A DNA stretch of 64,000 nt from a virus. The translations under genes and the position numbers were made by a program. The notes below the pieces were generated by a model, which ran no database searches, was not told the origin of the DNA, and saw only the letters and a program-made list of their open reading frames with translations. Each line of letters opens with the position of its first letter. Within the stretch, counting starts at the first letter, position 1. This document shows, piece by piece, positions 26,338-64,000 of the stretch. The stretch covers positions 64,001-128,000 of IMG/VR virus record IMGVR_UViG_3300013126_000010. One strand, given 5' to 3'.

Positions 26338-26339
26338 AG

Positions 26340-44586: not shown

Positions 44587-44615
44587 ATTATATCATAAGG
44601 ATACAACTATGTCAA
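44587..44615 (-). promoter_or_regulatory. sigma70-type promoter
   Basis: TTGACA-17-TATAAT with extended -10 TG. Confidence 0.8.
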
Positions 44616-51327: not shown

Positions 51328-51357
51328 TCTGGAAAGTTATTAAAGAAAGTATACTTT

Positions 51358-51385
51358 ATTATATCAGGTATATAGAAAAAATCAA
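51358..51385 (-). promoter_or_regulatory. sigma70-like promoter for the C-terminal piece
   Basis: TTGATT-16-TATAAT with extended -10 TG. Confidence 0.55.
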
Positions 51386-51409
51386 GAAATATTTTGATAA
51401 ATAATAGAT

Positions 51410-51439
51410 GTAGATCGCGATATGGGGATATCCATCTAC
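51410..51439 (+). promoter_or_regulatory. structured leader upstream of Seg-type endonuclease 2
   Basis: GTAGAT-CGC-GATAT gggg ATATC-C-ATCTAC, preceded by ATAAATA. Confidence 0.6.
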
Positions 51440-51466
51440 TTTAACAGTCATTAGGAGACTATCAAC

Positions 51467-52399
51467 ATGAATATTTATTCAAACTTTAAACCAACATATT
51501 TATATATCAAAACACACAACGTTACTGGCCTTCAGTATTTTGGTAAAACAATAAATGATCCATTTAAATATAAAGGTTCTGGTAAACGCTGGTTAAATCA
51601 TTTAAAAATTCATGGAAATAATGTCACTACTTCAGTAATTGGTTATTACACTGATGTTAATTCCTGTATCGATGTTGCTATTAAATTTAGTGCAGAACAT
51701 AATATAGTAGAATCAACTGCATGGGCAAATATTATACCAGAAAATGGAATTAATGGTGGTGGAACTGCATCACAACTGCACACTGTTCCTGTAAGAGAAC
51801 AGGCTGCATTAACATGTTTAGCAAGATATGGTAAAGAACACCCCTCATTAGTTCCATCGATAAAATTAAAAGCCAAGGTCACTCATATACAAAGATATGG
51901 TGACCTTGGGTGTAATTTAAATTCATCCAACTCCATCGCAAAACGGAATAAAACGAATTTAATTAAATACGGTAATGCATGTGCCGCCAACAAAGATGGT
52001 AATAAATCATCAATAATTGCACAGAGAACATTAAGATCTAGACCAGTCATTTTGGAACTAAAATTTCATGCATATAAAAGAAAAATATCACTACCATCTA
52101 ATTGGGTGTATAAGGACGACGACTGGCTGAATAACACATTATCTACCATATTAAAACTACCTGTATATGCTCCTGATATTAGTATGTACAATAATAGTCA
52201 ATTATCTAGATATAACAAGTTAAATAGACCACAAGTAATCAGATTATTAGAAATATCAAATTTATTGGATATAAAATTAGGTAAAAACTGGTTTCAACAA
52301 TCTGATTATTATATTTCTAACCTTCTTGACGAAGTTTTAATAACAATTTCTGACAGTCATCTTCCGACATCTCTTCAATTTTTGAAAGATATAATTTAG
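51467..52399 (+). mobile_element. Seg-like homing endonuclease inserted antisense within the DUF2828 gene
   Basis: YLYIKTHNVTGLQYFGKT...YKGSG; same N-terminal domain as the 44609 ORF. Confidence 0.8.
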
Positions 52400-52808
52400 C
52401 TTGTATTCCAGCATCCAATGCTTCTTTGATCAATCCATAAGCTTGATCTTTAAAATGTTTGGTAGTGAAAATTAACAAATCATCAAATCTACCATATTCT
52501 GGAACATATGGAATTACTTTTTCCAGCATTTCTGGATGGTTTGTTTCCATATATTGCAGAATATCACGGAAGATTTTACGTTCACCTGCACCACCACGAA
52601 CATCACGTGCCCATAATGCCACCTTGATGGCTAATTCTTTATCTTCTTGAAATGCTCGTTCGAATTGTGGGGTAATATCTTTTCCACGTGATGCGCCTAT
52701 TGCGAAAAACAAATTTACCAAGTTGTCACAAGAAGTTGTGTAAGCTACCATACCATTTGCGGTAGTGGTTTCGAATTGGGTGTTTTGTACTGCTGTTGAA
52801 AAGCTCAT
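52317..52808 (-). CDS. DUF2828/TROVE-like protein, N-terminal piece
   Basis: TANGMVAY, LFFAIGASRG, WARDVRGGAGER, EYGRFDDL. Confidence 0.85.
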   Translation of the reverse strand: MSFSTAVQNTQFETTTANGMVAYTTSCDNLVNLFFAIGASRGKDITPQFERAFQEDKELAIKVALWARDVRGGAGERKIFRDILQYMETNHPEMLEKVIPYVPEYGRFDDLLIFTTKHFKDQAYGLIKEALDAGIQAKLYLSKIEEMSEDDCQKLLLKLRQEG

Positions 52809-52819: not shown

Positions 52820-52859
52820 CAGGTTAATGTTAATTTTAAGTTGTTGCTGTATATAACCT
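52820..52859 (-). ncRNA. AGG-ACAGCAA-CCUG family element 1 (leader of the DUF2828 gene)
   Basis: AGGUUAUAU ACAGCAA ... UUAACCUG directly before RBS AGGUGA. Confidence 0.6.
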
Positions 52860-52860
52860 T

Positions 52861-52889
52861 ATTATACCATATAAGTTATGGTATGTCAA
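52861..52889 (-). promoter_or_regulatory. sigma70-type promoter
   Basis: TTGACA-17-TATAAT with extended -10 TG. Confidence 0.8.
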
Positions 52890-53157
52890 AATATTTTTTT
52901 AATTTATTAAGTTTAATATTCCATCTATTAGTATGTTCATGAAATGAACCGAATATACTATCTTGATTTTCATTAACCCAGTCTTTCACTATATCAACTT
53001 CATGTGAATATAACCATGATGATGGGATTGTGAATTTATTTGTTAGATTCTCAAGAATATCATAATATTTGTCCAAATAATATACTTTATCATTTTTTAA
53101 GATATCATTAGTGTCATGTTTATTATGAATAGGATCTAATATTTCACAAACCTTCAT
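52876..53157 (-). CDS. hypothetical protein
   Basis: 93-aa ORF. Confidence 0.65.
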   Translation of the reverse strand: MKVCEILDPIHNKHDTNDILKNDKVYYLDKYYDILENLTNKFTIPSSWLYSHEVDIVKDWVNENQDSIFGSFHEHTNRWNIKLNKLKKYFDIP

Positions 53158-53354
53158 AGTTTACCTTCTGCTTTTAACCGAAGATATTCTTCTCGTTTTC
53201 TTAGTACTTCTGGGTTGTTTGCCCATCGAGTAACAATATCACCAAACTCATGAATTGCGTTCAATTGTTTAATCAATATATTATATTCTTCTTTTTTCTC
53301 ATCAGACCAATTTTCATCAGCTGGAGGGTATTCTTTTAATTCATTGATGTTCAT
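53154..53354 (-). CDS. hypothetical protein
   Basis: 66-aa ORF. Confidence 0.65.
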   Translation of the reverse strand: MNINELKEYPPADENWSDEKKEEYNILIKQLNAIHEFGDIVTRWANNPEVLRKREEYLRLKAEGKL

Positions 53355-53377
53355 GTTTATTCCAAAAAATAAAATAT

Positions 53378-53543
53378 CAGGGTAAAGATTACGATTATTT
53401 TCCTTGGCTAACGTGGTCCCAAGTTTGTTTGCTCATATGTATTATACCTTCACAGATCTCTATGACTTTCGCCAACATCTCCAGTATTGAATACCCGATT
53501 TCAAACTCCATTAATATAATTATGGTTTTGCTGAATTTACCCT
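53378..53543 (-). ncRNA. AGG-CAGCAA-CCUG family element 2 (166 nt)
   Basis: AGGGUAAA/UUUACCCU 8-bp closing stem with CAGCAA. Confidence 0.55.
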
Positions 53544-53559
53544 ACAACTATTATTAAAT

Positions 53560-53990
53560 GTCTGCATTCTTATACTCTGCCACCCAATATGATTCGTAGT
53601 CATACTAGTGATGGTTATTCTCCATCCTATCAATAAAATAATAATTCTTATATTACTATACACGTGCCTTAAATGCCTTCTCATAGTGGATGACTCATTA
53701 CCTTCATCGTTGGAAAATAGTAGCCTGACTACTACAACCTGCATAATTCTCTGCCATATCTATGGTGTATAGTAATACGTAGTGCTTTTAGACTTATTGT
53801 CTAAGGATCATACTCATTGCTTATATCTCAATTATAAACCGATCTTACAACCCAATATGATATTTTATAGTATAATATTGACTAGTTCGTTACGCTAATG
53901 TATTTGATAGATTCATACTAACTGTAGTATGCAATATATATGTTGTTAACATCAATCTATCTGCATTCTCTCTGCCACAAATATGTAGTG
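53560..53990 (-). other. degenerate tRNA-like units
   Basis: UGGCAGAG(N2-6)AUGCA D-arm motif at 53575, 53749 and 53970. Confidence 0.5.
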
Positions 53991-54061
53991 TATCATGTAG
54001 TATATAATATTATGTCATATTTGTATTATAACATAATTATTTGTCTATGTCTAGACAAATT

Positions 54062-54173
54062 TGGCGGGCTAGAATAGACATTACTCTATTGTATGTACTG
54101 TTCGTCCACTGTTAGTGTTTACTATGTACGATGGTTGCGATACCATCTGCATATGTTTCTCTGCCACTAACCC
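54062..54173 (-). tRNA. atypical tRNA-like gene (8-nt anticodon loop, long variable region, CCA end)
   Basis: GGGUUAG/CUAGCCC-G-CCA acceptor; GAUGG-UAUCGCAA-CCAUC. Confidence 0.5.
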
Positions 54174-54182
54174 ATAATTCAT

Positions 54183-54258
54183 TGGAGATCATAGTTGGAT
54201 TTTAACCAACGTAAACACGGTTTTGCAAACCGGCGCATAAACACTCTGCCATATGACC
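54183..54258 (-). tRNA. tRNA-Cys(GCA), non-canonical T loop
   Basis: GGUCAUA/UAUGAUC-U-CCA; UU-GCA-AA loop; T loop UUAAAAU. Confidence 0.75.
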
Positions 54259-54271
54259 ATAATTGTTTATT

Positions 54272-54511
54272 TTAACTTTTTTCTATCGTAATTTCGATTG
54301 TTTTTGGCACAATTGAAATATGAATTGGTTCCGGGATAATTTGACGAGCCGCTTGGATAATGCTATCAAAATATTCTTGAATTTTATGCATAGGTAACGT
54401 ACCAGTATCTACTGTAAATATTACCCTATCACCTTCTGTCAATTTAGTTACATCTAACAAATCAATTTTTTCTATTTGTTTTATCATTTTTATTCCTATA
54501 TTGGAGCACAA
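54272..54511 (-). CDS. hypothetical protein (likely start MIKQIEK)
   Basis: 79-aa ORF. Confidence 0.6.
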   Translation of the reverse strand: MCSNIGIKMIKQIEKIDLLDVTKLTEGDRVIFTVDTGTLPMHKIQEYFDSIIQAARQIIPEPIHISIVPKTIEITIEKS

Positions 54512-54696
54512 ATCAAGAATTGAACTTGAATTTAAAAAATATTAAAAAATTTATTAAATAAACTACCTGATACTGGTACACCAGTAATAGTAACAACATT
54601 GGCTATTACATCAGACAGCTGGTCATTTCCTAAATATTTATTCATGTACCGGACCATTTATGCTATTAATACAACAGTAAATCAAAATCGTATGAC

Positions 54697-55368
54697 TTAC
54701 TTATAACGGCAATTATCAAAATGATATCGAGTCATGTTTGATGTGCCACCACTTTTATTACAATATGGACAAACAACAACTTCCTGCTTACCTGTTGTTA
54801 TACCTTTATTCCATGGTATCTGTTCACCAATTTTTCCTTTATTCCACGGAGTATTTCCAAGCCCTTTTCCAGTTCGATTAATAGAGATTTTTTCCTTTAT
54901 TTCTTCTGTCATTGGGTGTGGAGGGATTCCTCTCCTATGTAATAGTACTCTTCCGGTATACCATCCATCTGGAATTAATTCAGTGTTTAGGATTTTTTTA
55001 TTTATTTCTCCGTTAGTTATCCAAATAGTACCATATTGGCTATTATTCGCACCACGTTGATTATCGGAAATGGTGTTAGTGAATCTTCTTTTCAACCATC
55101 CATACAACGTTCGATTGATTCGTTTGCCTTTATGGCCTTGACACATTTTATTAACAGCATAAATTAGTGTGTGATGTTCTGGATATATTTTTACCAATAA
55201 CACGTGGCATAAAAAATGTTCTTCTGGTGTTAGTTTAACCAAATTATCCTTATTATTTGTTCCACCAATACACTTAGGAATAATATGATGTCTCTCATGG
55301 TATTCATTATCTATGTTTCTAGATTGCGCTCTAATAATTAATTTATTATATATTTTTTTATAATCCAT
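54697..55368 (-). mobile_element. Mob-type HNH homing endonuclease with NUMOD-like tail
   Basis: HERHHIIPKCIGG...NLVKLTPEEHFLCH; PWNKG repeats; ATAAATA at 55373-55379. Confidence 0.9.
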
Positions 55369-55398
55369 TAATTATTTATCAATTTCGAACTTGCGTAA

Positions 55399-55436
55399 CA
55401 GGCGTGGAATGCTAAAATTACTGCTGTAACTATCCT
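55399..55436 (-). ncRNA. AGG-ACAGCA family element 3 (imperfect)
   Basis: First 15 nt AGGAUAGUUACAGCA are identical to element 6. Confidence 0.45.
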
Positions 55437-55627
55437 AAATTTTATAATTCGTCTTCTTCAAGAAAATGGAACTGATACCCATCTGGCATATTCATTCCAA
55501 CTTGATTACATTCATCAATGGACATTTCTTCATCTTGAAATGCACCAAAAACAAAATCAAACATCGTTTGGGGTTCAACCATCTCAAAAAATGTCATACT
55601 ATTTCTCTCTAAAATCAATTATAATAT

Positions 55628-55656
55628 ATTATAGCATGATTATGGTTTGATGTCAA
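55628..55656 (-). promoter_or_regulatory. sigma70-type promoter
   Basis: TTGACA-17-TATAAT with extended -10 TG. Confidence 0.85.
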
Positions 55657-55661
55657 CGCTT

Positions 55662-56384
55662 CTACGCTAACAAGTTAGCCCAATCAGGTTTATTTTTATA
55701 GAACATATGAAGATTATTATTTATTTTTTCATAATTTAAGTTATAATATGTTGCTAACACATGTAAACTAGTGGTTGAAAATAAACTAACATGTCCATTA
55801 CGAGGACATGCATACCACCATTCTAGCGGTATTGATATATTTTTATCATTAATTAATGTCGAAAATAATATAACACCAGTAGGTGATAACCTATGTAACA
55901 GTTCTATCATTGTTGCATGGATGTCAATACAATGCTCAAATACTTCAAATGCAGTAATTAGATTATATTCACTATACAAACTAGTTAATTCTATGCTATC
56001 ATAATACTTGTCATATGATATGGAATTCCAGCCATTGCTTTGTAATGTTTTGGATAATAATCCTTTCCCACCACCATAATCAAAATGAGTTATATTAGGT
56101 AAATATTTTAATAATTTATTATTAATAAAGCATGCATTGGTGAATGGTCTGGTGTATTCATGATCTGGATCTATTATAGCATAATCATCATTATATACAT
56201 AATACCCAAGTTTACTATCACCCCAGTCATACATGGTCGGTGTATACACAAACCCACAATATGGGCATCGTCTATATTCGATAAGAATATCACTCCCCCC
56301 ACCATGTATTCCAATACTAGATTTATTGAAATCTATATTATCAATAAATACAGTGTCATTATTACAAATAGTACAGGTATTCAT
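55662..56384 (-). CDS. class I SAM-dependent methyltransferase
   Basis: N-terminal CxxC/CxxC, FDYGGGKG, FEVFEH, GHVSLF. Confidence 0.85.
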   Translation of the reverse strand: MNTCTICNNDTVFIDNIDFNKSSIGIHGGGSDILIEYRRCPYCGFVYTPTMYDWGDSKLGYYVYNDDYAIIDPDHEYTRPFTNACFINNKLLKYLPNITHFDYGGGKGLLSKTLQSNGWNSISYDKYYDSIELTSLYSEYNLITAFEVFEHCIDIHATMIELLHRLSPTGVILFSTLINDKNISIPLEWWYACPRNGHVSLFSTTSLHVLATYYNLNYEKINNNLHMFYKNKPDWANLLA

Positions 56385-56767
56385 TATAAATATGGTGTAA
56401 TATACAATAATTCAATTTCAGATGTACTCATTGGATTTACATTTGAATATTGTTTGTACAATCCTCCAAATTTCCTAGTTACTCTGTCATAAGTATAAAT
56501 TATATCAACTGTTGTTTGATCAACATAACAAATGATACCTTGACTGGGTATACCATCAAACCATTCTGGTGCAGTATACAATTCCCATTCATCAGTATTT
56601 GCAAATACTTCAGTGTGCGGTTGAGTTACCCCATCCTTATAAACCAATGTCATAATAGTATTGGAATCATATTCCAAATACTTGATTGGATTATCTGGAT
56701 TAGCCCATGCCAATTTCGATACTCTGTCGCCATTTAACATTGCTTGTAAAATTTCTTTACGTGTCAT
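56384..56767 (-). CDS. hypothetical protein
   Basis: 127-aa ORF. Confidence 0.65.
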   Translation of the reverse strand: MTRKEILQAMLNGDRVSKLAWANPDNPIKYLEYDSNTIMTLVYKDGVTQPHTEVFANTDEWELYTAPEWFDGIPSQGIICYVDQTTVDIIYTYDRVTRKFGGLYKQYSNVNPMSTSEIELLYITPYL

Positions 56768-56792
56768 ATTTTTTTCCTAAACAATAATATAT

Positions 56793-57065
56793 TTACTGTT
56801 TTTTCTTAATACTAAATTTTAATGTACTAAGGTCGTATCCACGTTCTTCTAATAATTTTACCAATGGTTGTTCTGAAATCATCGACCCTGGTCTGTATCT
56901 TTCATTACAGAAAACTTGAAATAATAATGCACTATCTGCACCATTATGTCCTGCACCATCACCCCAGAATACAATTATATCATCTGGATCTTTACGTTCC
57001 AACTTTCCATATTGTAATCTAAGTTCACCATCTTTTGCTTTAGGTGGCCTGAATTGTTTAGCCAT
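56793..57065 (-). CDS. hypothetical protein
   Basis: 90-aa ORF. Confidence 0.7.
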   Translation of the reverse strand: MAKQFRPPKAKDGELRLQYGKLERKDPDDIIVFWGDGAGHNGADSALLFQVFCNERYRPGSMISEQPLVKLLEERGYDLSTLKFSIKKKQ

Positions 57066-57253
57066 TATAGCAATGATCCCACAACAATCCCAATGGCAAC
57101 ACCGACACTAAGCATGAAAACAAACCATCCATTCAATCCACGTAAAAATCTAGCATGGTCTGTATGATAATCAAATTTTGCATACAAAAATCCACAAACT
57201 ACAATCAATATTGCAATTAAAACAGCCATCATGTTTCCTATTTTTCAATTATA

Positions 57254-57337
57254 TGGTAGGTCAGGTGAGAGTCGAACTCACAATCCTTCCGGCAATGCGA
57301 TCTAAGCGCATCGTGTATGCCATTCCACCACTGACCC
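57254..57337 (-). tRNA. tRNA-Leu(UAG)
   Basis: GGGUCAG/CUGACCU-A-CCA; AUGCG-CU UAG AU-CGCAU; long variable arm; UUCGACU T loop. Confidence 0.92.
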
Positions 57338-57338
57338 A

Positions 57339-57662
57339 TTATATATTTCGTTCTTTTGAATTATCAAAAATTTGTAAAAACTTATTACCATCAGTATGGG
57401 TATCAACTAATATCATGGTGTATTCTTCTCCACGATATACCCATTTATTTAAAAATCGTTGAGTATATATCTCATTACGATAATAATTTCCATCAGAATC
57501 AAGATCTTCTTCAGTTTCAGAAAAAATCACATTATCATTATTTTGTATTCGCCAGAAATAATCCCTGGCATCATCAAATGGATATATACACCAATCTTCT
57601 TTATATCCAAAATATTGAAATATTTGATTTCTAAGACTTTGTTCTTGATCTAATAGATTCAT
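57339..57662 (-). CDS. hypothetical protein
   Basis: 107-aa ORF. Confidence 0.7.
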   Translation of the reverse strand: MNLLDQEQSLRNQIFQYFGYKEDWCIYPFDDARDYFWRIQNNDNVIFSETEEDLDSDGNYYRNEIYTQRFLNKWVYRGEEYTMILVDTHTDGNKFLQIFDNSKERNI

Positions 57663-58042
57663 TATTTAATAGTTATTTCACTAGGTAAAGTCCACATGGC
57701 ACCAGTGAATGGATCAATTAATACCATCCCAATTATGCCGCCAACCAACAAATTGCCAAAATACCAATTATTCAAGGAACTATCAATAATTCCTAACCCA
57801 ACATGCTCATTATTTTTATCTAAAACATCAACATGATAGGTTGATTTTTGAAAATATCCATTACCAGTTGATAATGAAACTGTTGCTGGAATATTTCCTT
57901 TATAAATGATGGAATTATCGGAATTGGTGATAACTGCTTTCGCATCACCGGTATGTTTAATTGATACTTCTTGTACAGAACCACTAATTATTGTAGCACA
58001 TCCTGATAAAAATAACAAACTTAATGCAAATATCTTTTTCAT
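57662..58042 (-). CDS. lipoprotein
   Basis: Lipobox LSGC. Confidence 0.75.
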   Translation of the reverse strand: MKKIFALSLLFLSGCATIISGSVQEVSIKHTGDAKAVITNSDNSIIYKGNIPATVSLSTGNGYFQKSTYHVDVLDKNNEHVGLGIIDSSLNNWYFGNLLVGGIIGMVLIDPFTGAMWTLPSEITIK

Positions 58043-58079
58043 AAAAATCTCCTAAAATAATATTTATGAAGATTTCAGG

Positions 58080-58286
58080 TTATTTCCATAATATGAGAGT
58101 ATTAAAAAACCAAACAATTATTACAACAATTATACTAACAACCCAAATGGTCCATTCTGTTGATGTAGCACCATATTCTTTGAAAATTTTGTATGCTCTA
58201 CCTAATGTTGCTAAAAAATATATGGCTGCAACTGTTATAACAATACTACCAAATAATTTTGATTGTAAAAAATCTAATATGTTCAT
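58080..58286 (-). CDS. small membrane protein
   Basis: Two TM helices. Confidence 0.55.
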   Translation of the reverse strand: MNILDFLQSKLFGSIVITVAAIYFLATLGRAYKIFKEYGATSTEWTIWVVSIIVVIIVWFFNTLILWK

Positions 58287-58394
58287 AATATTTACTCAGG
58301 TTATTAGTAATTTGGATATATCATTTTTCCCACTCTACCACAGTGTATTACTAGGAGATATAATTATGCTGAAAATAACCTATTATTCATCATA

Positions 58395-58598
58395 TCATGT
58401 TTTTGTCACATGTAATGACGCTACATTATCATGAATTACAACATTTGATGTTACTTGTTGTAATTCCAAATCAATCCCTCTAATAATTTCATCTTCGATA
58501 TTAATGTTGTAATATTCTTTTAAATCTATGCTAGCTTCTTCTGTATAGCGAAAAGTTATACCTTTATAGTTACTTTCATGTACATGGTCGTTGTTCAT
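58395..58598 (-). CDS. hypothetical protein
   Basis: 67-aa ORF. Confidence 0.55.
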   Translation of the reverse strand: MNNDHVHESNYKGITFRYTEEASIDLKEYYNINIEDEIIRGIDLELQQVTSNVVIHDNVASLHVTKT

Positions 58599-58616
58599 AC
58601 CTTATCCTTCAATATG

Positions 58617-58883
58617 TTATCCCCAAACAGTTCCCCATGATTTATCTGAATATAATCTAAACATCATATAATCAGAATGATCACGACTATCCTGTTCTAC
58701 ATACCAACATTCATAAGGTTGGTCTTCATCATCAACATCATCCTTATGGTCATATCTTTCAATCAATTTAATAGTGGCACCTAATTTATTGAAAATATAA
58801 ATTATGGTGTCTTTTACTGATCCATTGACCAATGATGTTCCAATTTGGTCATAATCATCAATCATTTCTGCCATCGTATTCAT
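58617..58883 (-). CDS. hypothetical protein
   Basis: 88-aa acidic ORF. Confidence 0.6.
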   Translation of the reverse strand: MNTMAEMIDDYDQIGTSLVNGSVKDTIIYIFNKLGATIKLIERYDHKDDVDDEDQPYECWYVEQDSRDHSDYMMFRLYSDKSWGTVWG

Positions 58884-59209
58884 TATGAATCCTTAATTAA
58901 TAATCTATCAATGTTTTGTTCCATTAATTGACTAATTCGTTTATGATCGGTATATGGGTTATCTAACCAATGTGAATATTTTAATCTGAAAAATGTTTCT
59001 TTTTGTTGATCATAGATTGTAACGGCCCATATTTGTATACCATCAAACCCACTAGCAGCTAATAATATTCCTTGCCATCCTACCCCTTTTCTGAAATGGT
59101 GGGTATGTTTTACTTCTGGACCAACGTTACTAATCAAATATGAAAAGGTTTCAGTAATTCTATTTTCATAGTCATGATCATATTGCACATTACCGTATAT
59201 TACTAACAT
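58883..59209 (-). CDS. hypothetical protein (FxLKY motif)
   Basis: 108-aa ORF. Confidence 0.6.
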   Translation of the reverse strand: MLVIYGNVQYDHDYENRITETFSYLISNVGPEVKHTHHFRKGVGWQGILLAASGFDGIQIWAVTIYDQQKETFFRLKYSHWLDNPYTDHKRISQLMEQNIDRLLIKDS

Positions 59210-59333
59210 TATTTCATATATTGATTCAAGTTAAAATTATTATAGCATGGTTTATTTAAATATTATACGTTAATTAATGGTATATTTATCGAAGATACTA
59301 CATATAGTATAGTGTGACCAATAATGCCACTAG

Positions 59334-59413
59334 AGCTAGGGGTGAGATTCGAACTCACGATGTGGTATTCCTCGTTACAAGGGAGGTACAATCGGCCACT
59401 ATGTGACCCTAGC
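59334..59413 (-). tRNA. tRNA-Thr(UGU), CCA not encoded
   Basis: GCUAGGG/CCCUAGC; CU UGU AA loop; GUGAG-UUCGAAU-CUCAC T arm; enlarged variable region. Confidence 0.7.
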
Positions 59414-59446
59414 TCTAGTAGCACTACGGTATGTTAAAGTATTTTG

Positions 59447-59518
59447 CTCCCCCATCTCGATTCGAACGAGACTCACGATGCTTAACAGGCATGCCGCACA
59501 CCTAGTGCGTTCAGGGGA
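59447..59518 (-). tRNA. tRNA-Asn(GUU), CCA not encoded
   Basis: UCCCCUG/UGGGGGA-G; CU GUU AA loop; UCUCG-UUCGAAU-CGAGA T arm. Confidence 0.8.
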
Positions 59519-59566
59519 GCAAAATACTCTATTCTTTATTATAGCATTTATTTATCAAAAATGCAA

Positions 59567-59655
59567 CAGGATGATATCATTTTGCGGGAACTATGGATTC
59601 AAACCATACAAACGCTTCCACTAGCGGTTCTCGATTAGATTGCAGTAATCATCCT
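59567..59655 (-). ncRNA. family element 4 enclosing an anticodon-less tRNA mimic
   Basis: AGGAUGAU/AUCAUCCU stem; D arm CGCU-AGUGGA-AGCG joined to T arm UAUGG-UUUGAAU-CCAUA. Confidence 0.7.
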
Positions 59656-59663
59656 ACAATTTC

Positions 59664-59692
59664 ATTATAGCATATAAAATGATTATATGCAA
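59664..59692 (-). promoter_or_regulatory. sigma70-type promoter for element 4
   Basis: TTGCAT-17-TATAAT; predicted +1 within about 2 nt of the AGG start. Confidence 0.7.
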
Positions 59693-59699
59693 GTCTTAT

Positions 59700-60260
59700 T
59701 TAATCGAAAAAATTATACCAGACAGTTGGGCCTGATTCATCCAAAAATTTAGTGGAATATCCACTTCCAAATCTTTCAAATAGATAGCATTTATCGATAT
59801 CCATTAATGTTCCTGAATATGGTTCAATCTCTCCAGAAGATTTATTTAAAATAGAAACTTTCATTATATGATGATTAACGATTGATTTAATCAAACTCTC
59901 ACCTTTATTAAAAATTGCACCATCTGCGATAATAGGATAATCAGATTCTTCTTTTACTGAAAATATCAGCCATTTTATAGCAGATGTGTTTCTATATTCT
60001 GGAAATACATAAATCATGTCAACATTATTATACATAATATGATTTATAGAAACGGATGATAATTTTATTAATCCTAATATAGTATTAGATTCTTTAACTA
60101 ACAGATAGGTATTATTATTTTTATATAATGCAATATTATCATTTACTTCTACAATTTTAGATGATCCGACAAAATAATTATCATACACCCATTTATATGA
60201 TATTTTAGAATCATCAAATGATCCAGCTGAAAATGATTCTATTATTTCGTTAAATCTCAT
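59700..60260 (-). CDS. possible GNAT-fold late protein
   Basis: MRFNEIIE N-terminus; IYVFPEYRN; ATAAATA at 60285-60291. Confidence 0.55.
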   Translation of the reverse strand: MRFNEIIESFSAGSFDDSKISYKWVYDNYFVGSSKIVEVNDNIALYKNNNTYLLVKESNTILGLIKLSSVSINHIMYNNVDMIYVFPEYRNTSAIKWLIFSVKEESDYPIIADGAIFNKGESLIKSIVNHHIMKVSILNKSSGEIEPYSGTLMDIDKCYLFERFGSGYSTKFLDESGPTVWYNFFD

Positions 60261-60309
60261 TAAATTATACCATAAATTGTATCATATTTATCACTAAAAC
60301 TATTATCAA

Positions 60310-60790
60310 GGATACACTGGGTTTTTACCAATAACACTTGGTCAGTATGTGCATAACATCCCGAATAATCTAGTTTAGGGAACCACCCCGTCACGTTGAT
60401 TACCGATAAGCAGGAATCGTTCACCTGCATCGTATCCCGATAATAGTTCTATATAATTTGGTGGATTGTTTTTTCGTTACTGTATAAGTACAATCCACCT
60501 AAAACTTATTTGCTATTACTTATGCAGTAATAGCAAATCCAGCATAAACGTCATCGTTTGCGTTTAATTTTTTGATTTTTACATCTTTCTCGATGATTCT
60601 AAATTATTCTTTCTCAACCACGTCGAAAACCTTTCATCCCCATAATAAGAGCATTGTTGCTATAATTAGGATTGGGTTCAGGTGTTATCGCTAACAAGGG
60701 AGTTCAATGCCCTTATTGTGGAGATGGGCGTATCGAAACGCCGTCCGCAATTTTTACTTAAATAATCTTTCAGCCATTTCTAGCAACGAA
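60310..60790 (-). ncRNA. ssrA: circularly permuted (two-piece) tmRNA; outer boundaries approximate
   Basis: Acceptor piece GGAC-GGCGU UUCGAU ACGCC-CAUCUCC-A (about 60790-60719) precedes coding piece GGGGAUG AAAGGUUUUCGAC (from 60641); G3.U70; tag ANDDVYAGFAITA* at 60561-60520. Confidence 0.88.
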
Positions 60791-60795
60791 TTCTT

Positions 60796-60996
60796 TTAAT
60801 CATCATCTATTTCATCATCTGTGCTTGCACGAATAATCATAGTATCACATGAACATAATAATTCATATGCTTTCTCAAATGTCCCTTCCAGCCAAAATAT
60901 TTTTTTGGAGCAAGTATGACATTCAAATACAACACATCCTGTAGTAATATCACATATATTTTTAAACTGTATTTTAAATGTTTCAAAATCAATCAT
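60796..60996 (-). CDS. hypothetical protein
   Basis: 66-aa ORF with CxxC. Confidence 0.55.
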   Translation of the reverse strand: MIDFETFKIQFKNICDITTGCVVFECHTCSKKIFWLEGTFEKAYELLCSCDTMIIRASTDDEIDDD

Positions 60997-61135
60997 ATCG
61001 TTATGTTTTTAATAATATTCTATTGTTGCATGATCGAGTCAGATCATCAACGAATTTATATAAGAATACTGTTACATCTGTGAACCAGATAATGACCATC
61101 ATTTTTATAATGATGACCACCAGTATTCTATAATT

Positions 61136-61789
61136 TTAATCTTTACCACTTAATGACAACAGTATTTGAAGAATGTTCAAGAACATATTCAAAATATCCA
61201 AATATAGTTGGACAGTTGCTCTAATGTAATTAGTTTCACCACCATTAATAATTTCACTGGTGTCATACAATATAAATCCAGAGAATATTACAACGGCGGC
61301 AAATGATACCATCAATTGTAATCCAGGAATATGAAATATAATCCCTGCAATACTGACCACGATTAGACCGATCAATGCTACGAATAATGTTCCACCTAAA
61401 AATCCAAAATCTTTCTTAGTGATGGTCACATAAGACGATAATGCGATGAATACAAGAGCAGTAAGACCGAATGCATATGCGATTAGTTCTGGACCATTAA
61501 CAAACTGTTCAGTAACTTGATGCAGTACTGGTCCAAGTGTTAATCCTTCAAATCCAGTGAACAACAGTACACAAACCAACCCAAGTGATGATTCTGCAGT
61601 TGCCATTGTAAGAAATAACAATCCAATTGCTACTATCAATTGCACCCATATATTAATGGGTTCGATATTCATCAGTACTGCCACCCAAGCTGAAATGGCT
61701 GTGTTGAGTAATGTACCGGATAATAACCAGTATGTATTACGTAGTACTTTGTTCGTTTCGAAAGTTGAATCTATTGTTGTAGCTGCCAT
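61136..61789 (-). CDS. yccA: Bax inhibitor-1/YccA family membrane protein
   Basis: NKVLRNTYWLL, FTGFEGLTLGP, TKKDFGFLG, ILYDTS.II.GGETNY, LYLDILN. Confidence 0.93.
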   Translation of the reverse strand: MAATTIDSTFETNKVLRNTYWLLSGTLLNTAISAWVAVLMNIEPINIWVQLIVAIGLLFLTMATAESSLGLVCVLLFTGFEGLTLGPVLHQVTEQFVNGPELIAYAFGLTALVFIALSSYVTITKKDFGFLGGTLFVALIGLIVVSIAGIIFHIPGLQLMVSFAAVVIFSGFILYDTSEIINGGETNYIRATVQLYLDILNMFLNILQILLSLSGKD

Positions 61790-61927
61790 TTAAAATTCCT
61801 ATATTGTTAAGATTTATTTATTATAACATGATGTAAAAATATCAGCAGATGATGACTAGTCATCTGTACCCATTGTACTGCACTCCTGGGTGGAAGTCAT
61901 TTAGTCACTGACATTAAATTTAGTATA

Positions 61928-62218
61928 TCATACTCCAAAGTATGTTGTCAACTCGTTTATCATTATAACTGGCTGTTCATTTTCAGTAAATATTTTAGGA
62001 ATTACGTGCTGATACATATATACATCTTCTTGAATATTTGATAATTCGGTTGGATTATATATCCTATAAAGATCATCAGTAAAATTATTGGTGTGTTCAT
62101 GATGATACTCATAGAATTCATAAAAACTATTAATTATAGAATCCCCTTTCAAAATATCCATTAGTTTTTTACGAGAATTTACTGTTATTTCAGCAAGTCT
62201 CATATACCCCATCCCCAT
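61928..62218 (-). CDS. hypothetical protein
   Basis: 96-aa ORF. Confidence 0.55.
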   Translation of the reverse strand: MGMGYMRLAEITVNSRKKLMDILKGDSIINSFYEFYEYHHEHTNNFTDDLYRIYNPTELSNIQEDVYMYQHVIPKIFTENEQPVIMINELTTYFGV

Positions 62219-62385
62219 TTTTCTGAATGTTCTTTGACTTTTTTATTTGCCAGCATCATTTGATCAATCAATGATTGTAATTCTTCATCTGACATTTTTT
62301 TTAAGTTTGGATTTAATTTATTTCCATATACATCGAACATATCTTCAGTATTAACACTGTCATCATCATTTAATTCATTTATCAT
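62200..62385 (-). CDS. hypothetical protein
   Basis: 61-aa ORF. Confidence 0.55.
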   Translation of the reverse strand: MINELNDDDSVNTEDMFDVYGNKLNPNLKKMSDEELQSLIDQMMLANKKVKEHSEKWGWGI

Positions 62386-62397
62386 GACAAATTTTCC

Positions 62398-62595
62398 TTA
62401 TTTTCTAAATCGTGGCATGTTACCAATATAACCATCAGGAATAAAGCATTCAAGCATTGGGATAAGAGTACTTAGTTCAATTACTGGTGTTTTTTCTACT
62501 AATTTATATTCACCATCTATTAAAAGATAATATACATCATCAACATGATGATCCAATTGTGGTTGGAATATTGTTTTTAGGTCTGTTAACGTCAT
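62398..62595 (-). CDS. hypothetical protein
   Basis: 65-aa ORF. Confidence 0.55.
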   Translation of the reverse strand: MTLTDLKTIFQPQLDHHVDDVYYLLIDGEYKLVEKTPVIELSTLIPMLECFIPDGYIGNMPRFRK

Positions 62596-62644
62596 TTTTA
62601 TATAAACCTGTTGTTCATATGTTATTTTCTAAATAGTGGCACGA

Positions 62645-63037
62645 TCAATAGATTTTATTCATTATTTCATTAAAGACATCATTGTCTGTATAAGTTTGAT
62701 AATCTACTGTAAAATCAAAAACATCGCTTATGTCGTTACCGAATACATTAATTAATGCAGTTCTCCACTCATTCATACAGGAATCATACTCAGATGGATC
62801 GATTTCATATGAAGTATAACCAATACTATTAATCCCGTCAGCTGGTCTACATGAAAAATCATGAACTCCATATTTAGACTCTAGTTCATCAATAATTTCT
62901 TCACATTCTTCTGATGGTTCAAAGAAGAAATCTTCAAAAAACTCAGATTCGGCATTAAATAAAAAACCTTTCCAGGTGTGTTGTTTGGTTTTTTGATTGT
63001 AAAAGTTAAAATAGAATACTGAATTATGTGTTGGCAT
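62645..63037 (-). CDS. hypothetical acidic protein
   Basis: 130-aa ORF downstream of a promoter. Confidence 0.65.
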   Translation of the reverse strand: MPTHNSVFYFNFYNQKTKQHTWKGFLFNAESEFFEDFFFEPSEECEEIIDELESKYGVHDFSCRPADGINSIGYTSYEIDPSEYDSCMNEWRTALINVFGNDISDVFDFTVDYQTYTDNDVFNEIMNKIY

Positions 63038-63062
63038 GATATTTACCTAATTGATGTAAGTG

Positions 63063-63203
63063 TTATTTTATTTTACCATGGTTATCATCGTTTGGCAAGT
63101 CTTTTTTATCTTTTTTACCCCAAATTCTATCCCAGTTGTCGTCGAATTTTTTCTTATCTACTGGTCTAGGCTTTGAACCTTTACCACCTTCCCATTGTGA
63201 CAT
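63063..63203 (-). CDS. 46-aa small protein (GKGSKPRPVDKKKFDDNWDRIW), not in the ORF track
   Basis: Manual translation; fills the gap next to the upstream stop. Confidence 0.55.
   Translation of the reverse strand: MSQWEGGKGSKPRPVDKKKFDDNWDRIWGKKDKKDLPNDDNHGKIK
63070..63098 (-). promoter_or_regulatory. sigma70-type promoter
   Basis: TTGCCA-17-TAAAAT with extended -10 TG. Confidence 0.6.
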
Positions 63204-63204
63204 A

Positions 63205-63414
63205 TTATCCCCATTTTAATAAAAATAATGTTTCATGATTTGGATTTTCAAAAGAGAATGTCCTATATGGTGGATTTCGAATGGCAACGGGAGAGATCCA
63301 TTCTGTATAATAACCAATCCCTATATTTTCGTTTAACCATTGGTCCAAATCTTCACCATTTTGGGTTATTTCCCAAATTTTATCATTATTGATGCGTATT
63401 TTATTTATCGACAT
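63205..63414 (-). CDS. hypothetical protein with C-terminal FxLKW motif
   Basis: 69-aa ORF. Confidence 0.6.
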   Translation of the reverse strand: MSINKIRINNDKIWEITQNGEDLDQWLNENIGIGYYTEWISPVAIRNPPYRTFSFENPNHETLFLLKWG

Positions 63415-63611
63415 ACTTCTGCATCATATTCTTTTTCAGTCATGCAAATGATTTTAACAGTATGAAAATGATTTGCCAATACATCATCTTTCAGTCTATC
63501 TTTTTCGGCATCTTCAAAATTGAAGTAGAACTTTTCAGTGGTTTTGTGCATATCAGAATAAATGATACCATCTTTTCGTTTTTGCATTATTACATAAACT
63601 TCATATGCCAT
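63405..63611 (-). CDS. hypothetical protein
   Basis: 68-aa ORF. Confidence 0.6.
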   Translation of the reverse strand: MAYEVYVIMQKRKDGIIYSDMHKTTEKFYFNFEDAEKDRLKDDVLANHFHTVKIICMTEKEYDAEVCR

Positions 63612-63820
63612 TATACTAACTCACTTAATTTGTCAACAGCTGATTCAATATTGTCAATGGCTTCATCACAATTATTTAAATGATCTTTAACTTCATATAA
63701 CAATTCACGCAATTTATCACGTTCTTTTGACAATGATTCTTTGTGTTTTGTCAATTCTTTGATAGCTTTATCGATATTGTTTGTTTTTTTCATAATTATA
63801 TACAGGTTGATGTTTTTCAC
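63611..63820 (-). CDS. small coiled-coil protein
   Basis: 69-aa ORF. Confidence 0.6.
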   Translation of the reverse strand: MKNINLYIIMKKTNNIDKAIKELTKHKESLSKERDKLRELLYEVKDHLNNCDEAIDNIESAVDKLSELV

Positions 63821-63824
63821 ATTT

Positions 63825-63857
63825 CAGGTATGATTGTTTATTTGCGGTAATCAACCT
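63825..63857 (-). ncRNA. family element 5 (minimal stem-loop)
   Basis: AGGUUGAUU ACCGCAA AUAAAC AAUCAUACCUG. Confidence 0.6.
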
Positions 63858-63864
63858 AAATTAG

Positions 63865-63988
63865 CAGGATAGTTTTTATACGTTGCTCTACCAGTCTGAG
63901 CTAACTTCTCCATAGTATTTGGGAGAAGTATGGGATTTGAACCCATGACCAACGGCTTAACAGGCTATTTAATTGCTGTAACTATCCT
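63865..63988 (-). ncRNA. family element 6: circularly permuted tRNA inside the closing stem (YrlA-like topology)
   Basis: AGGAUAGUU/AACUAUCCU 9 bp; order CUGUUAA loop, T arm AUGGG-UUCAAAU-CCCAU, acceptor ACUUCUCC-loop-GGAGAAGU, D arm GCUC-AGACUGGUA-GAGC. Confidence 0.8.
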
Positions 63989-64000
63989 AATTCATAATTT

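What the first reader, a model, noticed from the sequence alone, without database searches (positions are those of the whole stretch)
52820..63988. Candidate system: a family of six closing-stem RNAs with tRNA-mimic cargo around a Ro60-like gene
Seen: six minus-strand intergenic elements (52820, 53378, 55399, 59567, 63825, 63865) share 5' AGG-N5-7-(A)C(A/U/C)GCA(A/G) and 3' CCUG. The stem sequences differ but still pair (AGGGUAAA/UUUACCCU, AGGAUGAU/AUCAUCCU, AGGAUAGUU/AACUAUCCU), and the cargo ranges from 6 nt to about 140 nt, twice a rearranged tRNA. One copy lies immediately before the RBS of the DUF2828 gene. Established: Ro60 binds Y RNAs through a stem formed by their 5' and 3' ends, and bacterial YrlA RNAs carry a tRNA-like domain. 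Inference: a phage Ro/Y-like RNP with its own binding motif, autoregulated through its leader, presenting tRNA decoys (for example against anticodon nucleases or tRNA-modifying toxins) or scaffolding RNA repair.
Basis: partly seen in the sequence, partly recalled or inferred. Interest (0 to 1): 0.9.

Follow-up and report, generated by a model that had tools for sequence, protein, structure and literature searches.

The report
Phage Ro60-like protein's partner RNAs
A large uncultured phage carries a family of small RNA genes that share one conserved "handle" and carry pieces of tRNA; they are most likely the partner RNAs of the neighbouring Ro60-shaped protein, and I found this pairing across very different phages but described in neither Rfam nor any paper I searched.

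Summary
The family is real. Five complete elements and one truncated copy lie in the window, all on the minus strand, and five more lie upstream in the same 185-kb phage contig.

- **Handle:** the two ends pair as (U)AGG.../...CCUG. CAGCAA sits exactly 7 nt after AGG. An A-rich stretch precedes the 3' strand, and the stem covaries.
- **Cargo:** tRNA parts, namely a permuted YrlA-like tRNA body, a D/T elbow, or an anticodon-loop-like hairpin.
- **Protein:** the neighbouring DUF2828/DUF7788 protein, split here by an inserted gene, models as a full-length Ro60 (TROVE ring plus vWA) fold, although its sequence does not match TROVE.
- **Distribution:** the same handle lies beside DUF2828 in phages of Ralstonia, Salmonella, Listeria, Mycobacterium and Vibrio. 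In IMG/VR, 52 of 77 contigs with closed elements carry DUF2828, against 3 of 41 chance matches.
- **Leader:** in 32 of 47 loci an element ends within 100 nt of the start codon, next to the ribosome-binding site. This fits autoregulation.

Binding, RNA ends and function were not shown. The handle resembles Dictyostelium Class I RNAs, below the Rfam threshold. Earlier notes show this scan already found the family in at least 207 other genomes. I found no paper or Rfam family describing it.

The parts
63865..63989 (-). E1: handle (UAGGAUAGUU / AACUAUCCUG) plus a permuted tRNA-like body, with T arm, loop-closed acceptor stem, D arm and an inner stem in place of the anticodon stem
   Evidence: RNAfold z -3.05. 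Rfam YrlA 39 bits, E 8.5e-6, below GA 69; only the tRNA-like core aligns.
63803..63858 (-). E2: minimal 55-nt element. Handle (UAGGUUGAU / AUCAACCUG, core CCGCAA) plus a 5-bp hairpin with the 7-nt loop CCUGAAA
   Evidence: Rfam Dicty_Class_I_RNA 20.4 bits, full model length, below GA 41.5.
59567..59656 (-). E3: handle (UAGGAUGAU / AUCAUCCUG, core CUGCAA) plus a cargo with a D-like hairpin and a T-arm-like hairpin (AUGGUUUGAAUCCAU). A TATAAT box lies 8 nt upstream.
55399..55437 (-). E4: truncated copy. It has the 5' module UAGGAUAGUUACAGCAG and a start resembling E1's cargo, but no 3' strand. The HNH endonuclease ORF 55368-54697 follows.
   Evidence: no fold; no partner sequence nearby.
53378..53544 (-). 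E5: handle (UAGGGUAAA / UUUACCCUG) plus a cargo of about 140 nt. It belongs to a conserved class of about 165 nt that shares CUGGAG and UGAAGG motifs.
   Evidence: alignment with nine elements from other phage contigs.
52820..52860 (-). E6: 40-nt leader element (AGGUUA / UAACCUG, CAGCAA). It ends 11 nt before the DUF2828 start codon, and the Shine-Dalgarno AGGUGA starts 3 nt after its last G.
   Evidence: the same short leader class occurs in L003, L005 and L043.
52861..52889 (-). Perfect sigma-70-type promoter (TTGACA, 17 nt, TG-TATAAT). Its -10 box abuts E6, so transcripts started here would probably lack most of E6's 5' strand.
   Evidence: 12 of 12 matches. The same arrangement occurs in relative L003.
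52317..52808 (-). N-terminal piece of the DUF2828 (Ro60-like) gene: 163 aa, homologous to residues 1-134 of full-length relatives
51467..52399 (+). Inserted ORF (310 aa) that splits the DUF2828 gene. Its N-terminus resembles GIY-YIG Seg-type homing endonucleases, and a paralogue lies at 44609-45502.
   Evidence: only a weak DUF7487 match; no group I intron model matched; no PHROG match.
50266..51327 (-). C-terminal piece of the DUF2828 gene: 353 aa, comprising the rest of the helical ring plus the vWA domain (DUF7788) with MIDAS residues DxSxS...T...D. It has its own promoter-like site and start.
   Evidence: PF11443, and PF25043 at 6.8e-47.; phrog_850 'RNA-binding protein'.

Best explanation
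These elements are genes for small non-coding RNAs built from two modules.

**Handle (conserved).** The two ends of the RNA pair in a 6-9 bp stem, 5' (U)AGG... with ...CCUG 3'. The outer pairs are conserved and the inner pairs covary. The stem opens into an internal loop. Its 5' side is two or three bases followed by CAGCAA, always 7 nt after AGG. Its 3' side is A-rich.

**Cargo (exchangeable).** The cargo is made of tRNA parts: an anticodon-stem-loop look-alike, a D/T 'elbow', or a circularly permuted tRNA body of the YrlA kind.

**Partner protein (inferred).** The handle is most likely the binding site of the neighbouring DUF2828/DUF7788 protein. That protein is a very divergent structural relative of Ro60 (helical ring plus vWA/MIDAS domain). 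The whole would then be a branch of the Ro60/Y-RNA ribonucleoprotein.

**Leader copy (inferred).** The copy just before the gene's ribosome-binding site probably lets the protein repress its own translation by covering the Shine-Dalgarno sequence.

**Function (weakest step).** By analogy with two studied relatives, the particle probably helps the phage against host RNA- or tRNA-directed stress or defence:
- the Ro60-like gp130 of phage Bas63, a Felixounavirus, counters the Ppl defence system; its equivalence to this gene rests on genome position and genus, because Bas63 itself was not retrieved;
- phiLo Ro60 with its Y-like RNAs binds and dampens host PNPase.

Shown here: the family, its covariation, its tRNA-part cargo, the fold of the protein, the co-occurrence, and the leader position.

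Inferred: binding, processing into discrete RNAs, autoregulation, and the biological role.
For: **The family in this genome.**
- Eleven copies on one strand within about 29 kb.
- The window holds 5 closed elements against 0.06 expected.

**Covariation.**
- In an alignment of 63 short elements from many contigs, stem pairs 2-8 are 97-100% Watson-Crick, with up to four pair types per position.
- 121 cells changed on both sides, against 37.5 in shuffles (0 of 500 shuffles reached this).
- 89.8% of cells are paired, against 35-43% when one strand is slid.

**Protein fold.**
- The AlphaFold model of the full-length relative P0003 (pLDDT 83) matches Ro60/TROVE structures over about 500 columns: 9KOP, 9L5Y, 1YVR and 2NVO.
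- E-values run from 5e-10 to 2.5e-7 and TM is about 0.6.
- The MIDAS residues are invariant.

**Co-occurrence.**
- The same handle lies beside DUF2828 in Ralstonia phage RSP15 (6 copies), Salmonella phage Si3 (4), Listeria phages P100 and CKA15 (3), Mycobacterium phage Faith1 (3), Vibrio phage phi-ST2, and metagenomic relatives.
- A blind IMG/VR scan for the 5' motif gave 77 contigs with closed elements. DUF2828 is on 52 of these, including 3 of 3 that are at least 90% complete.
- Of 41 contigs with unclosed chance matches, 3 carry DUF2828, and 0 of 5 complete ones do.
- T4 and T5 have tRNA clusters but no DUF2828, and they show only scattered chance motifs.

**Leader.**
- 44 of 47 DUF2828 loci have a same-strand element upstream.
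- 32 of these end within 100 nt of the start codon (median 27 nt), with the Shine-Dalgarno sequence 0-10 nt after CCUG.

**Cargo.**
- E1 matches the tRNA-like core of YrlA.
- Of 128 short elements, 94 have a hairpin with a 7-nt loop, against 33.6 in shuffles.
- 67 have U33 and R37, against 5.4 in shuffles. The loop consensus is CUNNNAA.

**Literature.**
- CKA15's DUF2828 homologue was found in virions. Three very highly transcribed non-coding regions lie within 2 kb upstream of it, and the authors guessed these were Y RNAs (PMC12282133).
- Bas63 gp130, Ro60-like and directly upstream of the tRNA genes, counters Ppl (PMC11482910).
- phiLo Ro60 binds Y-like RNAs and PNPase (PMC12135203).
Against: - No experiment shows that DUF2828 binds the handle.
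- By sequence the protein is not a TROVE member: Pfam gives only DUF2828 and DUF7788, and its profile against PDB sequences gives E 0.7.
- The handle lacks the GNCGAA/CGAA motif that canonical Ro60 proteins are thought to contact.
- For Dictyostelium Class I RNAs, the closest RNA look-alike, the only shown direct binder is an RRM protein, Rnp1A.
- In this phage the gene is split into two ORFs, so activity here depends on the pieces assembling.
- The perfect promoter abutting E6 would start transcription inside E6's 5' strand. If so, mRNAs from that promoter may carry no closed leader element.
- The elements for the covariation and cargo statistics were picked by requiring a closing stem, and many come from related phages. 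That inflates the counts.
- The paper does not give coordinates for two of the three CKA15 transcribed regions, so their overlap with the three handle RNAs is not verified.
Confidence: 0.7

Rival explanations
1. The handle is recognised by some other protein, either a host factor or a phage RNA-binding protein (as the RRM protein Rnp1A binds Class I RNAs in Dictyostelium). DUF2828 would then act elsewhere in the same pathway, for instance on the tRNA-like cargo or on damaged RNAs.
For: The only direct binder shown for the look-alike Class I RNAs is an RRM protein. The handle lacks the canonical Ro60 contact motif. Co-occurrence shows a shared function, not contact.
Against: The pairing with DUF2828 holds across phages of Proteobacteria, Firmicutes and Actinobacteria, whose host factors differ. 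An element sits directly on the DUF2828 ribosome-binding site in most loci. That is the usual signature of a protein binding its own leader. I noticed no other gene recurring in the annotated loci, though I did not test this systematically.
Confidence: 0.12
2. The elements are processing or stability 'punctuation' for long tRNA-operon transcripts, such as sites for a host RNase, and have no life of their own as RNAs.
For: Many copies lie between tRNA genes and small ORFs on polycistronic-looking stretches. The conserved flanks, U-rich before and UU after, could be cleavage contexts.
Against: The tRNA clusters of T4 and T5 lack them. Faith1 and several metagenomic loci have them beside DUF2828 with no tRNA gene in the stretch. 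Cargo that mimics anticodon loops or whole tRNA bodies is not needed for punctuation. Some copies have their own promoter-like sites.
Confidence: 0.08
3. The elements are a DNA-level repeat, either a miniature mobile element with inverted ends or homing-endonuclease target sites, rather than RNA genes.
For: They have inverted-repeat ends. Homing endonuclease genes are frequent in the region: the HNH gene at 54697-55368 and the insert in DUF2828.
Against: All copies are on the transcribed strand. The ends differ between copies while keeping complementarity, including G-U pairs that are meaningful only in RNA. The cargos are unrelated to each other. The motif is conserved across phages with very different GC content.
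Confidence: 0.02

Closest known systems
Bacterial and mycobacteriophage Ro60 (Rsr) with the Y RNAs YrlA/YrlB (Chen et al. 2014, PMC4201824; Rfam RF02553)
   Same: A ring-plus-vWA protein is encoded beside several small RNAs on the same strand. The RNA ends pair in a stem that adjoins a conserved single-stranded motif. At least one RNA carries a tRNA-like domain with T arm, D arm and a closed acceptor stem, and E1 aligns to that core.
   Different: The protein is DUF2828, not detectably TROVE by sequence. The motif is CAGCAA at a fixed distance from the 5' end, not GNCGAA. E1 scores 39 bits against a threshold of 69, and its outer stems do not align. There are many more RNAs per genome. Short members carry only an anticodon-loop-like hairpin. 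A copy sits on the gene's leader.
Thermus phage phiLo Ro60 with Yrl1/Yrl2 (PMC12135203; PDB 9KOP, 9L5Y)
   Same: This is the best structural match to the DUF2828 model (E 4.9e-10, TM 0.60). It is a phage-encoded Ro60-like protein with phage-encoded partner RNAs upstream of the gene.
   Different: phiLo Ro60 is annotated as a TROVE protein, and its RNAs were picked by a CGAA motif. Sequence identity to the DUF2828 model is about 17%. PNPase binding has been shown for phiLo only.
Dictyostelium Class I RNAs (Rfam RF01414; Kjellin et al. 2021, PMC7919456)
   Same: Both are 42-65 nt RNAs with a short covarying stem joining the two ends, a motif (C)UUACAGCAA right after the 5' strand, an A-rich 3' part, a variable middle, and ends AAG...CUGU. 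Short phage elements align to the whole model: 32.1 bits for a copy at genome 142016, 20-27 bits for others, and 20.4 bits for window E2.
   Different: All scores are below the Rfam threshold of 41.5. The Dictyostelium RNAs are reported to be unique to dictyostelids, have their own DUSE promoter element, and are known to bind an RRM protein. I could not test whether Dictyostelium has a DUF2828 protein.
Bas63 gp130 (PhageMaP preprint, PMC11482910) and CKA15_055 (PMC12282133)
   Same: Both are Ro60-like proteins of a Felix O1-type phage and a P100-type phage, located next to the tRNA genes. The window protein is 44% identical to the Felixounavirus homologue and about 34% to the P100 homologue. 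Both papers guessed that partner Y RNAs lie nearby.
   Different: Neither paper identified the RNAs or the handle. The anti-Ppl role and the presence in virions are shown only for those phages. The equivalence of gp130 to the Si3 gene rests on genome position and genus, because Bas63 itself was not among the rows I retrieved.

Membership tests
Ro60 / TROVE-vWA proteins | Ring of helical repeats followed by a vWA domain, matching solved Ro60 structures over the full length | tested here: met
   The model of full-length relative P0003 (pLDDT 83, pTM 0.79) matches 9KOP, 9L5Y, 1YVR, 2NVO and 1YVP. E-values run from 4.9e-10 to 1.9e-6, TM is 0.53-0.62, and about 500-560 columns align.
Ro60 / TROVE-vWA proteins | MIDAS motif (DxSxS...T...D) in the vWA domain | tested here: met
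   D272, S274, S276, T344 and D376 are invariant in 40 relatives. They are present in the window's C-terminal piece.
Ro60 / TROVE-vWA proteins | Sequence membership in the TROVE family (Pfam PF05731, or a significant sequence match to solved Ro60) | tested here: not met
   Pfam gives only PF11443 and PF25043. phmmer and a 40-sequence profile against PDB sequences give no significant hit; 9KOP and 9L5Y score E 0.7.
Ro60 / TROVE-vWA proteins | Binds Y RNAs | not testable with these tools
   This needs EMSA, RIP or CLIP. Only co-occurrence and leader position were shown.
YrlA (Rfam RF02553) | Score at or above the gathering threshold of 69 bits | tested here: not met
   E1 scores 39 bits (E 8.5e-6). 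A copy at genome 145625 scores 25.9 bits. The other elements give no hit.
YrlA (Rfam RF02553) | tRNA-like domain: T arm, loop-closed acceptor stem and D arm, with a stem in place of the anticodon arm | tested here: met
   Met for E1 only, by the RNAfold structure and by alignment of model positions 23-96.
YrlA (Rfam RF02553) | GNCGAA(N0-1)G motif near the 5' end (proposed Ro60 contact; Chen 2014) | tested here: not met
   The 5' region of every element reads AGG-N7-CAGCAA. A GGCGAAA seen in some copies lies inside cargo hairpins.
Dictyostelium Class I RNAs (Rfam RF01414) | Score at or above the gathering threshold of 41.5 bits | tested here: not met
   The best score is 32.1 bits (L132 64-116). 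Window E2 scores 20.4 bits. All hits cover the full model length.
Dictyostelium Class I RNAs (Rfam RF01414) | Short covarying terminal stem, 11-nt motif next to the 5' strand, conserved ends AAG...CUGU, and 42-65 nt length | tested here: met
   Met for the short elements, by alignment A3 and the pair counts, by alignment to the model consensus GaUcuCCUUACAGCAAU...CUG, and by the description in PMC7919456.
Dictyostelium Class I RNAs (Rfam RF01414) | DUSE promoter element about 60 nt upstream; dictyostelid host | tested here: not met
   This is a phage contig. The upstream sites are sigma-70-like.
CAGCAA-handle RNAs next to DUF2828 (informal family of this scan) | Handle with fixed 7-nt spacing, a closing stem ending in CUG, and the same strand as and proximity to a DUF2828 gene | tested here: met

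The most novel reading that the evidence does not exclude
The phage handle RNAs and the Dictyostelium Class I RNAs would be one RNA family, whose ancestral partner is the DUF2828-type Ro60 paralogue. DUF2828 occurs in phages and many eukaryotes; earlier notes of this scan also report it in giant viruses. In phages the particle would display tRNA parts, namely anticodon loops (Lys-UUU, Thr-UGU and Arg-UCU are the most frequent) and tRNA elbows. These would act as baits or shields against tRNA-directed host defences. A concrete test is open. The pull-down of Class I RNA DdR-21 recovered an uncharacterised protein, DDB_G0281243 (bioRxiv 10.1101/2020.04.05.026054). If that protein is a DUF2828/vWA protein, the link is made.
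Probability: 0.2. Interest if true: 0.9.

Novelty: new variant of a known kind. Interest (0 to 1): 0.74.

Why it matters
DUF2828 is a very large family of unknown function. It occurs in 708 of about 50,700 phage records, and over 5,800 protein clusters match at E <= 1e-20. It also occurs in fungi and other eukaryotes. A defined RNA partner would turn it into a testable ribonucleoprotein.

That partner has a short, mutable handle and swappable tRNA-part cargo. It would also explain unannotated 'spacers' in the tRNA clusters of well-used phages (Felix O1 types, P100 types, mycobacteriophage cluster L). It would give a mechanistic lead for the reported anti-Ppl activity of Bas63 gp130.

If the resemblance to Dictyostelium Class I RNAs reflects common descent, a class of RNAs published as unique to social amoebae would gain relatives and a candidate partner protein.

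Tried and rejected
- **Sequence searches against solved structures:** the two protein pieces and a 40-sequence profile found nothing significant. Only the fold comparison links the protein to Ro60.
- **Group I intron in the split DUF2828 gene:** no Rfam intron model matched 51200-52500. I read it as a gene split by an inserted ORF, with a short duplicated helix at the junction.
- **RNA repair genes:** RNA ligase (PF09414), RtcB (PF01139) and CCA-adding enzyme (PF01743) were not found in the 185-kb contig. The contig is only about 52% complete, so this says little. Relatives do have an RNA ligase or RtcB close by.
- **Inner GGCGAAA motif:** I first took it for the YrlA GNCGAA motif. The alignment shows it is part of cargo hairpins and is not conserved.
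- **Promoter or terminator reading of the handle:** rejected, because the stems covary and no U-tract follows.
- **Dictyostelium DUF2828 protein:** the ESM Atlas look-up and a 'longer proteins' search gave viral and fungal members only. Avesson et al. 2011 is not held. This remains untested.
- **CKA15 transcribed regions:** the paper gives coordinates for only one of the three highly transcribed regions, and that one is ROOL-like, not a handle RNA.

Full report
**What is in the window.**
- The minus strand of 52.8-64 kb is a stretch of small ORFs, four tRNA genes, a permuted tmRNA gene and unannotated gaps.
- The window is bases 64001-128000 of a 184.7-kb IMG/VR phage contig rated about 52% complete. 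It is a distant relative of the 355-kb Serratia/Erwinia jumbo phages.
- Five complete elements of the described kind are present: 63988-63865 (E1), 63857-63803 (E2), 59655-59567 (E3), 53543-53378 (E5) and 52859-52820 (E6). One 5' fragment is also present, at 55436-55399 (E4).
- E4 has no 3' partner and is followed at once by an HNH endonuclease ORF. It is a truncated copy.
- Five further copies lie upstream in the same contig.
- All copies are on the transcribed strand.
- The window has 7 matches to AGG-N7-CNGCAR against 0.82 expected. It has 5 closed elements against 0.06 expected in 200 dinucleotide shuffles.

**Anatomy.**
- Pooling 281 distinct elements from this genome and from the loci fetched later gives this consensus: U-rich flank, (U)AGG, four to six paired bases, two or three unpaired bases, CAGCAA, variable cargo, an A-rich run, the complementary strand ending in CCU, then G and usually UU.
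- The distance from AGG to CAGCAA is always 7 nt, whatever the stem length.
- In an alignment of 63 short elements (A3), stem pairs 2-8 are 97-100% Watson-Crick, with up to four pair types per position.
- 121 cells are changed on both sides, against 37.5 in column shuffles (0 of 500 shuffles reached this). Pairing is 89.8%, against 35-43% when the 3' strand is slid by one to three columns.
- Caveat: the elements were collected by requiring a closing stem, and many phages in the sample are related. The percentage paired is therefore partly built in. The diversity of pair types is not.

**Cargo.**
- E1 folds as a handle carrying a T arm, an acceptor stem closed by a loop, a D arm and an inner stem where the anticodon stem would be. 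Its core aligns to Rfam YrlA at 39 bits, E 8.5e-6, below the threshold of 69. The outer stems do not align.
- E3 carries a D-like hairpin and a T-like hairpin in the normal order.
- E5 belongs to a conserved class of about 165 nt with shared CUGGAG and UGAAGG motifs and some covarying inner pairs.
- The short elements mostly carry one hairpin. Of 128 elements of 45-75 nt, 94 have a stem of at least 4 bp with a 7-nt loop, against 33.6 in shuffled cargo.
- 67 of them have U at loop position 2 and a purine at position 6, against 5.4 in shuffles. The loop consensus is C-U-N-N-N-A-A, the signature of an anticodon loop.
- The commonest 'anticodons' are UUU, UGU, UCU, UGA and GUA.
- Window E2 has the loop CCUGAAA, which lacks U33. 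So the cargo is tRNA parts, not random filler.

**The protein.**
- The gene after E6 is DUF2828 (PF11443) plus DUF7788 (PF25043).
- Here it is split at about residue 134 into ORFs of 163 aa and 353 aa by a plus-strand ORF that looks like a Seg-type homing endonuclease.
- The C-terminal piece has its own promoter-like site and start.
- The same split recurs in relatives: L007 and several homologues of about 350 aa.
- Full-length relatives are about 465 aa.
- An AlphaFold model of one relative (pLDDT 83) matches Ro60 structures over its whole length. The matches are Thermus phage phiLo Ro60 (9KOP, 9L5Y), Xenopus Ro60 (1YVR, 1YVP) and Deinococcus Rsr (2NVO), with E from 4.9e-10 to about 2e-6 and TM about 0.6.
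- The MIDAS residues are invariant.
- By sequence there is no significant link to TROVE.
- GenBank records already call homologues 'Ro-like RNA binding protein' or 'RNA-binding protein'.

**Co-occurrence.** The handle lies beside DUF2828 in very different phages:

| Phage | Copies | Position |
|---|---|---|
| Ralstonia phage RSP15 | 6 | in the tRNA cluster around the gene |
| Salmonella phage Si3 (Felix O1 type) | 4 | just downstream; head AGACC.../...GGUCUGG |
| Listeria phages P100 and CKA15 | 3 | directly upstream |
| Mycobacterium phage Faith1 | 3 | directly downstream; head UGG.../...CCAG |
| Vibrio phage phi-ST2 | 2 or more | about 5-7 kb upstream, in and near the tRNA cluster |
| Five metagenomic relatives | 1-5 each | mostly upstream |

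- In the reverse direction, a blind scan of IMG/VR for UUUAGGAU-N5-CAGCAA returned 118 stretches.
- 77 of them have a closing stem plus G. Of these, 52 carry DUF2828 on the contig: 34 in the fetched stretch and 18 more on the whole contig. All 3 contigs that are at least 90% complete carry it. Most of the rest are fragments rated 3-20% complete.
- Of the 41 stretches without a closing stem, which are chance matches, 3 carry DUF2828, and 0 of 5 complete ones do.
- T4 and T5 have tRNA clusters and no DUF2828. They show only scattered chance motifs.
- The association is therefore with DUF2828, not with tRNA genes as such.

**Leader position.**
- In 44 of 47 loci holding the DUF2828 N-terminus, an element lies upstream on the same strand.
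- In 32 it ends within 100 nt of the start codon (median 27 nt). It is typically a short element of 35-62 nt, with the Shine-Dalgarno sequence 0-10 nt after the final G.
- Window E6 is of this kind, ending ...UAACCUG-AU-AGGUGA-AAC-AUG.
- A protein sitting on the handle would cover the ribosome-binding site. This is inference.
- One wrinkle applies here and in relative L003. A perfect sigma-70 promoter ends 1 nt before E6, so transcripts from it should start inside E6's 5' strand and lack the stem. Only read-through transcripts from upstream would carry the closed element.

**Literature.**
- Chen et al. 2014 found YrlA RNAs next to TROVE-annotated Ro60 genes only, with a GNCGAA motif.
- Iyer et al. 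2021 note TROVE proteins in some jumbo phages.
- The phiLo study shows a phage Ro60 binding two Y-like RNAs and host PNPase.
- The CKA15 study found the DUF2828 homologue in purified virions. It also found three extremely abundant non-coding transcripts within 2 kb upstream and speculated about Y RNAs.
- I place the three handle RNAs of CKA15 at genome 25,216-25,610, behind a TTGACA-17-TATCAT promoter.
- The one region for which the CKA15 paper gives coordinates is ROOL-like (90 bits).
- The PhageMaP preprint shows that the Ro60-like gp130 of Bas63, just upstream of the tRNA genes, counters the Ppl defence system. It guesses that some 'tRNAs' there are Y RNAs.
- None of these papers describes the handle family, and Rfam has no model for it at threshold.

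**Amoeba look-alike.**
- Short elements align over the whole Rfam model of Dictyostelium Class I RNAs. Scores are 32.1 bits for a copy at genome 142016, 20-27 bits for others, and 20.4 bits for E2, all below the threshold of 41.5.
- Model consensus and phage RNAs share the terminal stem, (C)UUACAGCAA, the A-rich 3' part and the ...CUG end.
- Kjellin et al. describe exactly these features, plus ends AAG...CUGU, and state that the class is unique to dictyostelids.
- DUF2828 occurs in many eukaryotes; fungi dominate the long forms, and there is one LeuRS fusion gene model in a dinoflagellate.
- I could not test whether dictyostelids have DUF2828.
- The DdR-21 pull-down recovered an uncharacterised protein, DDB_G0281243. 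Its domain content is the obvious check.

**Earlier notes of this scan.**
- The same family has been reported from at least 207 other genomes.
- I treated those notes as leads. The Class I hit was already in my own. I tested the anticodon-loop reading. I found and read the anti-defence paper.

**Verdict.**
- The best reading is a divergent Ro60/Y-RNA-type particle: a DUF2828 ring, handle RNAs with tRNA-part cargo, and a leader copy for feedback. My confidence is about 0.7.
- The function, whether counter-defence, RNA surveillance or tRNA-enzyme baiting, is open.

Noticed in passing
window 60520-60777 (-): A permuted (two-piece) tmRNA gene: Rfam tmRNA_permuted 104.7 bits against a threshold of 47. 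The tag reading frame reads ANDDVYAGFAITA-stop. ARAGORN did not call it. The syntenic relative L003 has one too (79.5 bits).
   Followed up: partly
window 50266-52808: The DUF2828 gene is split at about residue 134 by an oppositely oriented ORF (51467-52399) that looks like a Seg-type endonuclease. A helix of about 12 residues is duplicated at the junction, and the C-terminal piece has its own promoter-like site. The same split, with a different insert, occurs in L007 and is implied by several homologues of about 350 aa.
   Followed up: partly
window 54062-54173 (-), and 53984, 53764, 53589: A 112-nt tRNA-like gene that neither ARAGORN nor Rfam tRNA called. It has a 7-bp acceptor stem, a D arm, an anticodon-type arm with a 6- or 8-nt loop, a long extra arm, an odd T arm and an encoded CCA. 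Three further copies of its D-arm-like motif (GGCAGAG...AUGCAG) follow, and these did not fold into cloverleaves.
   Followed up: partly
window 54697-55436 (-): An HNH endonuclease gene sits exactly where the body of handle RNA copy E4 should continue. This suggests a homing endonuclease insertion destroyed one RNA gene.
   Followed up: partly
L130 1365-1916 (Listeria phage CKA15, genome about 26,195-26,746): The region published as the most abundant transcript of phage CKA15 (up to two thirds of phage reads) matches the ROOL RNA model at 90.1 bits, E 1e-17, just under the threshold of 99.1. It lies between tRNA genes, about 1 kb upstream of the handle RNAs and DUF2828.
   Followed up: partly
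protein P0229: A dinoflagellate (Durusdinium trenchii) gene model of 1858 aa fuses DUF2828/DUF7788 with a leucyl-tRNA synthetase. If it is real and not a gene-model artefact, it is an independent hint that DUF2828 deals with tRNA.
   Followed up: no
window 53378-53543 (-) and nine elements in L003, L011, L014, L032, L051, L059, L081, L082, L100: The cargo of about 165 nt in E5 is a conserved class with invariant CUGGAG and UGAAGG motifs and a covarying inner helix. It has no Rfam match, and its shape and role are unknown.
   Followed up: partly
window 61136-61789 (-): A phage-encoded Bax-inhibitor-1 family membrane protein (PF01027, E 2.5e-53) lies in the middle of the RNA-gene region.
   Followed up: no
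L004, L006, L007, L126, L129: An RNA ligase (PF09414 type) or RtcB gene lies within about 0.2-6 kb of DUF2828 in several relatives. In Cronobacter phage GAP32 it is directly upstream, and a CCA-adding enzyme is also nearby.
   Followed up: partly
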